A DNA stretch of 57,721 nt, the filler included, from Dugesia japonica (lineage: Eukaryota), in the NCBI GenBank assembly GCA_001938525.1. It is 6 parts of 6 records of this genome, joined end to end, with 100 filler letters (N's around TTAATTAATTAA, not from the genome) between each part and the next. Parts side by side here need not be neighbours in the genome. Positions count along the whole stretch, not along the records: positions 30,168 to 40,231 come from MQRL01599939.1; 5 more parts are not named here. The stretch is one strand, 5' to 3'. The notes beneath the pieces were generated by a model. The model ran no database searches. It worked only from the letters and a program-made list of their open reading frames with translations, and was not told the origin of the DNA. Shown piece by piece: positions 38,486 through 38,671 of the stretch. Made by a program: the position numbers and the translations under genes. Every line of letters begins with the position of its first letter. The first letter of the stretch is position 1.

Positions 38486-38671
38486 ATGCCGGGAGAGCTA
38501 CGGAAGGCACTGTGGGTAATATTGAAGCAACGAAAGCGTGTACCTCTCCGACAACTCATCGGTCACTTATTATTCCCTGAGTTAGTTGAGCACCCTGACG
38601 AGACTGATTTACAGTGTTTCGTCGAGATGTTCCCGCTGAATTTCAGGGTAGATATAGATGACGAAGACTGA
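38486..38671 (+). CDS. unknown 61-aa protein, family Y copy 2 (basic patch, DLQCFVE motif, acidic tail)
   Basis: Intact, GC-richer than its flanks, TTTAG 3 nt upstream, AATAAA at 38718, paralog at 34762. Confidence 0.7.
   Translation: MPGELRKALWVILKQRKRVPLRQLIGHLLFPELVEHPDETDLQCFVEMFPLNFRVDIDDED

What the first reader, a model, noticed from the sequence alone, without database searches (positions are those of the whole stretch)
38486..38671. 61-aa family Y protein with an E1A/E7-like DLxC..E-FP..acidic motif
Seen: the residues conserved between Y2 (HLLFPELVEHPDETDLQCFVEMFP..VDIDDED) and Y1 at 34762 (HLLFPNIIPSPDELDLQCFLEMF..VDLDENS) centre on PDExDLQCFxEMF, an acidic tail and an RKR basic patch. 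Known: adenovirus E1A, papillomavirus E7 and polyomavirus large T bind Rb through D/N-LxCxE followed by an acidic stretch, and adintoviruses are reported to carry small proteins with such motifs. The spacing here is LxCxxE, one residue off canonical, so Rb binding is only a hypothesis.
Basis: partly seen in the sequence, partly recalled or inferred. Interest (0 to 1): 0.7.

Follow-up and report, generated by a model that had tools for sequence, protein, structure and literature searches.

The report
Small helical protein of endogenous adintovirus
This is a real 61-residue gene of a many-copy virus-like element, lying just upstream of a decayed DNA polymerase gene; its conserved core looks like a short helix rather than the tumour-suppressor-binding LxCxE motif it superficially resembles.

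Summary
Y2 (38486-38671) and its paralogue Y1 (34762, frameshifted) are real. Y2 lies about 1.8 kb upstream of a decayed pfam03175-type PolB (40445-43104), the slot where adintovirus 'Oncoid' genes usually sit. Its core (E35-P50) is shared by at least 79 distinct DNA contigs of the same organism, and diverged paralogues appear in one of two poly(A) RNA runs. The LxCxE reading fails, however. The canonical Glu is V, L or A in all three sequences, and the only full-length outside homologue (P0001) has Leu for Cys. No CR1 or CXXC motif is present, and no CK2 site follows the motif. The invariant residues are PDE, DL, F45, E47, F49 and a fixed-spaced V-D-hydrophobic-D tail. AlphaFold places them on a helix (39-48, pLDDT 80-90) in a three-helix protein with a basic N-half and an acidic C-half. 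Best reading: a small nuclear adaptor of an Alpha adintovirus/Polinton that binds a host factor through an acidic-hydrophobic helix (about 0.45). Binding the Rb LxCxE cleft: about 0.12. No known family or fold was matched, and Rb binding could not be modelled. It is a new accessory-protein family in a known kind of element.

The parts
38486..38671 (+). Y2: intact 61-aa ORF, GC 0.47 in a flank of about 0.22-0.26; net charge +6 in residues 1-30 and -10 in 31-61; three predicted helices (3-15, 19-29, 39-48)
38531..38539 (+). RKR basic patch (residues 16-18), at the end of helix 1; also in the Y1 N-terminal frame; RERK in P0001
38588..38635 (+). Conserved core E35-P50 (HPDExDLQCFxEMFP), predicted helix 3 with its cap; paralogous contigs diverge at both ends of it. 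Cys44 = 38615-38617; V46 (canonical Glu slot) = 38621-38623
38648..38659 (+). V55-D56-I57-D58 tail motif, at fixed spacing in Y1, Y2, P0001 and in 6 of 6 downstream loose-end rows shown for Y
   Evidence: loose ends read in frame by eye
34762..34939 (+). Y1: paralogue of Y2 whose reading frame shifts between the basic patch and HLLF
38834..39232 (+). X2: downstream partner ORF (132 aa, no ATG at the position where X1 starts); no known family
35062..35415 (+). X1: paralogue of X2 with an internal stop at 35314-35316; over 83 codons 34 synonymous versus 29 non-synonymous differences, 55 of 95 changes at third positions
38718..38723 (+). AATAAA between the Y2 stop and X2 (another at 38810); consistent with Y having its own 3' end
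   Evidence: sequence pattern only
39360..39566 (+). Short broken ORF ('Z') between X2 and PolB; no family match
40445..43104 (+). Decayed protein-primed PolB (many stops, several frames); matches residues 280-1197 of P0003 at E 3.5e-135; 5 of 7 homologues at 50-57% identity; 6 of 7 carry PF03175 and 3 of 7 also PF02945
37540..38400 (-). Decayed Asn-rich ORF-like tract (TAT array on the + strand) facing away from Y2; a similar tract lies at about 33780-34700 upstream of Y1

Best explanation
Y is a stand-alone accessory gene of about 60 aa of a many-copy Alpha-adintovirus/Polinton-type endogenous element, the first of a Y-X pair upstream of PolB. SHOWN: the ORF, its paralogues, protein-level constraint, nearness to PolB, and the absence of a true LxCxE. 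PREDICTED: three amphipathic helices. INFERRED: the basic N-terminal helical hairpin (with RKR) takes the protein to the nucleus and holds it on DNA or chromatin. The acidic-hydrophobic helix 3 (invariant L42, F45, E47, F49) and the fixed-spaced V-D-hydrophobic-D tail then bind a host protein, most likely a transcription or cell-cycle regulator, as an early regulator that prepares the cell for replication of the element. Cys44 is simply one hydrophobic slot (C or L) in that helix. It may work like a minimal E1A in role and gene position, but not through the LxCxE cleft.
For: Invariant columns across Y2, P0001 and Y1 are L29, P37, D38, E39, D41, L42, F45, E47, F49, V55, D56, D58; L42/F45/F49 have i, i+3, i+7 helical spacing, and C44 lies about 120 degrees off the hydrophobic moment in Y2. 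AlphaFold gives helices 3-15, 19-29 and 39-48, with block pLDDT 81-90 over residues 1-50. There are no gaps among the three sequences; 6 of 7 upstream and 6 of 6 downstream loose-end rows shown for Y keep register, and all 13 are open in frame. By contrast, E7 linkers vary, 7.7+/-2.1 residues (PMC3485249). Both best-supported variants in the core (38587, 38596) are synonymous third positions. Charge is split +6/-10 in Y2 and +8/-5 in P0001. Acidic plus bulky hydrophobic content, with acidic residues N-terminal, is what drives acidic activation domains (PMC8137143). PolB lies downstream on the same strand, and multi-copy depth continues between X2 and 40158. Three DNA contigs join a Y core to an X start, so the pair recurs elsewhere.
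Against: The model rests on three sequences (pTM 0.58; tail pLDDT 44-54). No partner is identified and nothing shows nuclear location or binding. An assembly gap (40232-40331) and an inserted repeat (40332-40450) separate Y2-X2 from PolB, and Y1-X1 has no PolB behind it. No Y or X homologue was found in 32 of 32 related PolB loci, though none extends much more than 1 kb upstream of PolB. Y-core depth (13,889) is about 14 times X's best bin (961), so many Y copies may lie outside this cassette. Strict position-by-position conservation is more than generic activation domains need, which fits a fold or a specific groove better than fuzzy activation.
Confidence: 0.45

Rival explanations
1. Y is a small winged-helix-like (LOTUS/Egalitarian-type) nucleic-acid-binding domain: helix-strand-helix-loop-helix-strand, with L42/F45/F49 as core residues and V55-D58 as the wing strand.
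For: Pfam WH_Egal E 0.057 over residues 11-56. Four of the seven Atlas rows shown are named families: LOTUS/OST-HTH 0.81, DUF3860 0.79, WHD_Egal 0.79, RNase R winged helix 0.77. Fixed spacing and a basic N-half also fit.
Against: The Pfam hit is far below the cut-off (14.4 versus 27 bits), and P0001 has none. All Atlas scores are under 0.9, which shuffled proteins reach (0.8 or more) a third of the time. The model has no strands. The C-half is strongly acidic.
Confidence: 0.2
2. One reading: a degenerate LxCxE Oncoid that docks in the Rb B-box cleft with L42, C44, a hydrophobic residue in place of Glu, and M48 as the +2 hydrophobic.
For: Acidic residues at -1 to -4, a +2 hydrophobic (M48) and a downstream acidic stretch match known affinity determinants (10.1101/2022.06.10.495386). 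The gene sits in the usual Oncoid position. Cys is shared by Y1 and Y2, and no high-share change at the Cys codon is among the 40 difference rows shown (226 hidden).
Against: The Glu that caps helix 4 of the B fold is described as an invariant contact, and E7 C24G and E26G lose transforming activity (PMC9562847). Position 46 is V, L or A in 3 of 3 sequences, and Cys is Leu in P0001. There is no CK2 site after the motif and no CXXC. The invariant F45/E47/F49 would fall on the wildcard side. No E1A, E7 or large T match appeared in Pfam or PDB searches.
Confidence: 0.12
3. Helix 3 is an E2F mimic (CR1-like): F-x-E-[LM]-F binds the Rb A/B groove and displaces E2F, with no LxCxE needed.
For: [FLIMV]x[DE][LM][FY] is present in 3 of 3 sequences, and these are the invariant residues. 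E1A uses such an E2F-site motif (10.1101/2021.05.14.444182). That it binds as a helix is recalled, not from a call.
Against: It fails the published CR1 pattern (DEN)(LIMV)XX(LM)(FY) and the recalled ELM A/B-groove core ending in Asp in 3 of 3 sequences. In E1A this motif alone is weak (median 3.9 uM) and relies on LxCxE tethering.
Confidence: 0.1
4. Y is not an adintovirus gene but part of a host multigene family or another repeat, possibly an exon spliced to X.
For: AG acceptor-like sites precede X1 and X2. X2 lacks an ATG. A gap separates the cassette from PolB. Y is far deeper than X.
Against: The two acceptor-like sites fall in different codon phases, and there is an in-frame stop two codons upstream of the Y2 ATG. 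Poly(A)-type signals lie between Y and X. No RNA joint was seen, on few reads (47 and 9 laid). No longer protein holding the domain was found among 1.84 billion representatives; P0002 is a repeat translation.
Confidence: 0.08
5. The 47-nt core is kept for a DNA or RNA function (hairpin or promoter element for X), and the protein motif is secondary.
For: The Y2 core folds with z -3.1, the hairpin ends coincide with the conserved block, and the common T38596C variant turns a U.G pair into C-G. Synonymous sites are more alike than expected from X (2 of 10 differ versus 5.7, P 0.017).
Against: The Y1 core does not fold (z +0.8). 8-12% of random synonymous codings of the same peptide fold as well. 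Flanks diverge in DNA yet keep amino-acid register.
Confidence: 0.05

Closest known systems
Adintovirus 'Oncoid' proteins (Starrett et al. 2021, PMC8502044; Buck et al., 10.1101/2024.03.25.586562)
   Same: Small ORF upstream of a pfam03175 (Alpha) PolB; basic patch; acidic C-terminus; D-L-x-C near the C-terminus.
   Different: The class is defined solely by short motifs: LxCxE, CK2, CR1, CXXC. Y2 and P0001 have none; Y1 has only an upstream SPDE CK2-like match.
Adenovirus E1A CR1/CR2, papillomavirus E7N, polyomavirus large T LxCxE region
   Same: Acidic residues before L-x-C, a hydrophobic residue four after Cys, an acidic tail; first gene of a block (inferred).
   Different: Canonical Glu absent, Cys replaceable by Leu, predicted helical with fixed spacing rather than disordered with variable linkers, no zinc domain, no profile match.
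'Adintoc' conserved adintovirus proteins of unknown function (PMC8502044)
   Same: Conserved accessory ORF of an adintovirus-type element without hits to known proteins.
   Different: Y is so far seen only in this organism's data plus one unnamed Logan contig. Identity with a numbered Adintoc was not tested; the supplement search showed only figure labels.
LOTUS/OST-HTH and Egalitarian winged helix (PF12872, PF23713)
   Same: Similar size, three helices, and a late L..F...FP..F.V hydrophobic pattern; weak profile and language-model likeness.
   Different: Below the cut-offs; no strands in the model; strongly acidic C-half.
Acidic activation domains with an amphipathic helix (FxxFF-like; the p53/VP16 F-x-x-hydrophobic-hydrophobic motif is recalled)
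   Same: Acidic residues N-terminal to F-x-x-[LM]-F on a helix.
   Different: Y is conserved position by position, whereas most activation domains depend on composition; no activation assay exists.

Membership tests
LxCxE Rb-binding proteins (E1A/E7/LT) | L-x-C-x-E (or Lx[CS]xE) core | tested here: not met
   0 of 3 (Y2, Y1, P0001); position 46 is V, L, A
LxCxE Rb-binding proteins (E1A/E7/LT) | Conserved central Cys/Ser | tested here: inconclusive
   Cys in Y1 and Y2, Leu in P0001; frequency among genomic copies not visible (226 difference rows hidden; only copies at least 80% alike were laid)
LxCxE Rb-binding proteins (E1A/E7/LT) | Acidic residue at -1 to -3, hydrophobic at +2/+3, acidic stretch downstream | tested here: met
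   D41; M48/L48; VD[IL]D tail
LxCxE Rb-binding proteins (E1A/E7/LT) | Binding to the pocket B-box cleft | not testable with these tools
Adintovirus Oncoid | Position upstream of PolB | tested here: met
   Y2 ends about 1.8 kb before PolB homology at 40445, same strand, across an assembly gap; not so for Y1
Adintovirus Oncoid | CK2 site (ST)XX(DE) just after the motif | tested here: not met
   None in Y2 or P0001; Y1's only match (SPDE) is before the motif
Adintovirus Oncoid | CR1 (DEN)(LIMV)XX(LM)(FY) | tested here: not met
   0 of 4 segments; only the relaxed F-x-E-[LM]-F is present
Adintovirus Oncoid | Paired CXXC metal site | tested here: not met
   One Cys in Y2, one in the Y1 C-part, none in P0001
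Alpha adintovirus / Polinton element | pfam03175-type PolB | tested here: met
   6 of 7 homologues carry PF03175, best E 3.5e-49; E 3.5e-135 to the window. The N-terminal OTU region is missing from the window remnant and was not tested
Alpha adintovirus / Polinton element | Integrase, ATPase and capsid genes and terminal inverted repeats in the same element as Y | tested here: inconclusive
   ATPase-integrase-penton-like remnants lie at 18005-19501, 19 kb away; no terminal repeats found around Y
Winged helix (LOTUS / WH_Egal) | Profile score above cut-off | tested here: not met
   14.4 versus 27 bits; P0001 no hit
Winged helix (LOTUS / WH_Egal) | H1-S1-H2-H3-S2 fold | tested here: inconclusive
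   Three helices, no strands, shallow alignment; best Z 3.7, rmsd 8.3, 53 aligned
J-domain (polyomavirus T antigen HPD) | Invariant HPD directly after basic helix II | tested here: not met
   HPD in Y2 and P0001 but SPD in Y1; it precedes helix 3; no DnaJ hit. The placement rule is recalled; HPDKGG

The most novel reading that the evidence does not exclude
Y is a 60-residue E1A analogue of an invertebrate-type adintovirus that inactivates the host pocket protein without a canonical LxCxE, either by a Glu-less variant matched to a diverged host cleft or by a lone E2F-mimic helix. It would be the most strongly conserved gene stretch of this block in a very large, partly transcribed endogenous family, and would give a directly testable link in the proposed shared ancestry of small DNA tumour virus oncogenes.
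Probability: 0.2. Interest if true: 0.75.

Novelty: new member of a known kind. Interest (0 to 1): 0.35.

Why it matters
Oncoid genes are annotated by short motifs alone, and none of the passages read reports a binding test. Y shows how a near-miss motif in the right genomic slot can mislead: one outside homologue and helix periodicity point away from the LxCxE cleft. It is still an unnamed, tightly conserved, many-copy accessory family with transcribed members, small enough to synthesise and assay. If it does bind the host pocket protein, it would widen the known ways in which DNA viruses and Polintons disable Rb; if not, its partner will say what these elements need from the host nucleus.

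Tried and rejected
No whole genome is held for this window, so paralogues could not be collected. The single-sequence word-index search with Y2 could not be made. The three-row profile found only P0001, among 13 candidates. Exact Y2 is not in the protein collection. Viral-contig scans found nothing for Y, X (one confirmed stretch but 0 loci returned) or PolB. The metagenome scan with the Y profile confirmed 0 of 596 stretches. X has no homologue among 12 candidates, no usable Atlas hit and only a low-confidence model (pLDDT 47), so its fold rows (best Z 5.9) were not used; WW-like and chromo-like looks are recall only. Fold searches of the Y model gave no Foldseek hit with E <= 0.001, no VIA Z >= 5 and no Z >= 2 on the second look; this shows neither a new nor a different fold. 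PHROGs, NCBIfam and PDB sequence searches gave chance-level rows only. Homodimer prediction: no verdict. P0002 was rejected as a translated DNA repeat. A conserved hairpin was rejected. A J-domain was rejected (SPD in Y1). No RNA holder was listed as on record; run X7 is only guessed to be RNA. The strand of the paralogue reads is unclear (first-mate minus dominant on Y, plus dominant on X). Earlier-findings look-ups returned nothing. The phage collection had no PolB match. The host organism was not identified; a literature guess established nothing.

Full report
OBSERVATION. The window is AT-rich (GC mostly 0.2-0.33) eukaryotic DNA littered with transposon debris; mariner and gypsy fragments were recognised by eye from translations. 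The ORF 38486-38671 encodes the quoted 61 residues. A paralogue begins at ATG 34762 and matches at E 1.3e-10. Y1 is broken: its first 18 codons align in register with Y2, including RKR at 16-18, but HLLF...DLQCFLEMF is in another frame. Each Y is followed after 120-160 bases by a paralogous ORF, X. X1 and X2 differ at 34 synonymous and 29 non-synonymous codons of 83, with 55 of 95 changes at third positions, so X evolved as a protein gene; both copies now look damaged.

CONTEXT. Downstream of Y2-X2, on the same strand, 40445-43104 is a decayed protein-primed PolB. It matches residues 280-1197 of P0003 at E 3.5e-135. Six of seven homologues carry PF03175 and three also PF02945. Starrett et al. 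call the pfam03175 class Alpha adintovirus and say Oncoid genes typically lie upstream of PolB (PMC8502044: passages and section 3.2 read; one supplement search showed only figure labels, and the file was cut when stored). Thirty-two metagenome loci with related PolB were fetched. The two long ones show the Polinton gene set: integrase, A32 ATPase and, by position and recall, capsid genes. Searching their ORFs against the window found further remnants: ATPase, integrase and penton-like at 18005-19501, and a PolB C-terminus at 46324-46557. None of the 32 loci holds a Y or X homologue, but none extends much more than 1 kb upstream of PolB, so that test is weak. An assembly gap and an inserted repeat lie between X2 and PolB, and Y1-X1 is not followed by PolB. 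I put Y's membership of this element at about 0.75 (judgement).

FAMILY. Laying four runs on 38390-40200 at 80% likeness (4 of the 24 runs listed) gave a summed contig depth in DNA run X1 of 13,889 over 38573-38633, against 12-17 in nearby non-coding bins and 961 in X's best bin. The tool warns that this is not a copy number; the countable floor is 79 contigs sharing one variant at 38596. Contigs break away at 38588/38591 and 38634, the ends of E35-P50. The only two core differences among the 40 rows shown (226 hidden) are synonymous third positions. Thirteen loose-end rows concern Y (18 shown, 277 hidden). Read in frame by eye, all 13 are open; 6 of 7 upstream rows keep His27 in register, and 6 of 6 downstream rows have V-[DE]-[ILM]-D at 55-58. 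These are therefore true paralogues constrained as protein. Three X1 contigs join a Y core to an X start. In raw poly(A) RNA, run X15 laid 47 reads, none 99% alike, some on the Y core with four distinct paralogue-type ends; run X18 laid 9 reads, none on Y. So diverged paralogues are weakly represented in one of two RNA runs and Y2 itself was not seen; the strand is unclear and DNA carry-over is not excluded. Outside this organism's runs, a profile search of 1.84 billion representatives found two proteins: P0001, a full-length 60-aa homologue 50% identical to Y2 from one unnamed Logan contig, which may be from the same or another species, and P0002, a translated repeat.

THE MOTIF. P0001 reads PDELDLKLFAELFP: Cys44 is Leu. 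The invariant columns of Y2, P0001 and Y1 are L29, P37, D38, E39, D41, L42, F45, E47, F49, V55, D56 and D58, with no gaps. None of the three matches LxCxE or Lx[CS]xE; position 46, the Glu slot, is V, A or L. None matches the published CR1 pattern or CXXC, and no CK2 site follows the motif. Structural work describes L, C and E as invariant alternating contacts, with Glu capping a pocket helix, while acidic flanks and a +2/+3 hydrophobic residue tune affinity (10.1101/2022.06.10.495386, passages). E7 C24G and E26G lose transforming activity (PMC9562847, passages). Y has the tuning features but lacks one core residue in every sequence seen and two in P0001. A relaxed LxC..acid pattern appears in 7.5% of shuffles of Y2. 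Pfam and PDB searches up to E 10 returned no E1A, E7 or large T, though these would miss a short motif. Against my reading: Cys is kept in both window copies, which are only about 54% identical; no high-share change at its codon was displayed; and its true frequency in the family is unseen.

STRUCTURE. AlphaFold on the three-row alignment gave helices 3-15, 19-29 and 39-48, mean pLDDT 80, pTM 0.58, and a low-confidence tail. L42, F45 and F49 form one helical face; C44 is about 120 degrees off the hydrophobic moment in Y2. S/H-P-D-E is a typical helix start and F-P a typical end (established knowledge). The N-half is basic (+6, +8) and the C-half acidic (-10, -5). Fixed spacing contrasts with the variable linkers of E7N (PMC3485249, passages). 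Fold searches were uninformative. Weak leads to winged-helix families (WH_Egal E 0.057; Atlas 0.77-0.81) stay below thresholds.

MECHANISM. The best-supported reading (0.45) is a small nuclear adaptor: a basic helical hairpin for import and nucleic-acid or chromatin contact, joined to an acidic-hydrophobic helix and a V-D-hydrophobic-D tail that bind a host regulator. Acidic residues N-terminal to bulky hydrophobics favour activation (PMC8137143, passages). Everything after 'helical protein with split charge' is inference. Rivals are a winged-helix-like domain (0.2), a Glu-less LxCxE (0.12), an E2F-mimic helix (0.1; E1A's equivalent motif is weak alone, 10.1101/2021.05.14.444182, passages), a non-viral gene or exon (0.08), and a DNA/RNA element (0.05). 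On the last: the Y2 core folds as a hairpin (z -3.1) whose ends match the conserved block, but Y1 does not fold and 8-12% of synonymous codings fold as well. A mild excess of synonymous identity in the core remains unexplained (P 0.017, post hoc). HPD suggests a J-domain (PMC8894888, passages), but Y1 has SPD.

COMPARISON AND NOVELTY. Y may work like an early viral regulator and sits where Oncoids sit, but it is not an Oncoid by the defining motifs; that class is defined solely by such motifs (10.1101/2024.03.25.586562, passages; its supplements are closed and could hold a named homologue). It is closest in kind to the unnamed conserved 'Adintoc' accessory proteins. Paper searches for adintovirus/oncoid/LxCxE and for Polinton accessory genes with Rb listed nothing that recognisably describes this family, but titles and abstracts cannot exclude it. 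Verdict: real and conserved, a new member of a known kind, Rb binding by LxCxE unlikely; interest 0.35.

Noticed in passing
window 18005-19501 (+): Decayed Polinton ATPase, integrase and penton-like genes in the same order as in L006/L007.
   Followed up: partly
window 46324-46557 (-): Fragment matching the PolB C-terminus, on the opposite strand from the main remnant; 40332-40450 also recurs inverted at 46599-46716.
   Followed up: no
window 37540-38400 (-) and 33780-34700 (-): Both Y copies have a TAT-rich array upstream that reads on the minus strand as a decayed Asn-rich ORF pointing away from Y, suggesting the shared cassette is larger than Y-X.
   Followed up: partly
window 38588-38632: Imperfect palindrome/hairpin coinciding with the conserved block; the common variant at 38596 improves one pair; not kept in Y1.
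   Followed up: yes
window 38573-38633 versus 38878-38938: Y core depth is about 14 times X's best bin in DNA run X1, so Y may occur in more element families than X. Unexplained.
   Followed up: no
L006:11330-11779 (-), L007:10318-10764 (-): TATA-binding-protein-like gene (PF00352, E 5e-18 and 2e-17) in both long Polinton loci; TBP is already a listed gene label in PMC8502044.
   Followed up: partly
L006:13480-13977 (+): Ubiquitin-conjugating E2-like gene (PF00179, E 1.7e-12) at the far end of the Polinton locus.
   Followed up: no
L011:61-738 (+): 225-aa ORF upstream of PolB whose Cys-rich N-terminus resembles, by eye, the N-terminus of the adjacent PolB; no Pfam hit.
   Followed up: no
window 39488-39731 and 39854-40158: Multi-copy AT-rich segments between X2 and the gap, where the missing PolB N-terminus would be expected; no homology to PolB detected.
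   Followed up: partly
window 13308-14027, 16718-17772, 19772-20530, 51316-52280: Gypsy-like reverse transcriptase and Tc1/mariner transposase fragments recognised by eye.
   Followed up: no
window 33012-33233 and 35944-36168: Dispersed repeat pair, 71% identical, either side of the Y1-X1 block.
   Followed up: no
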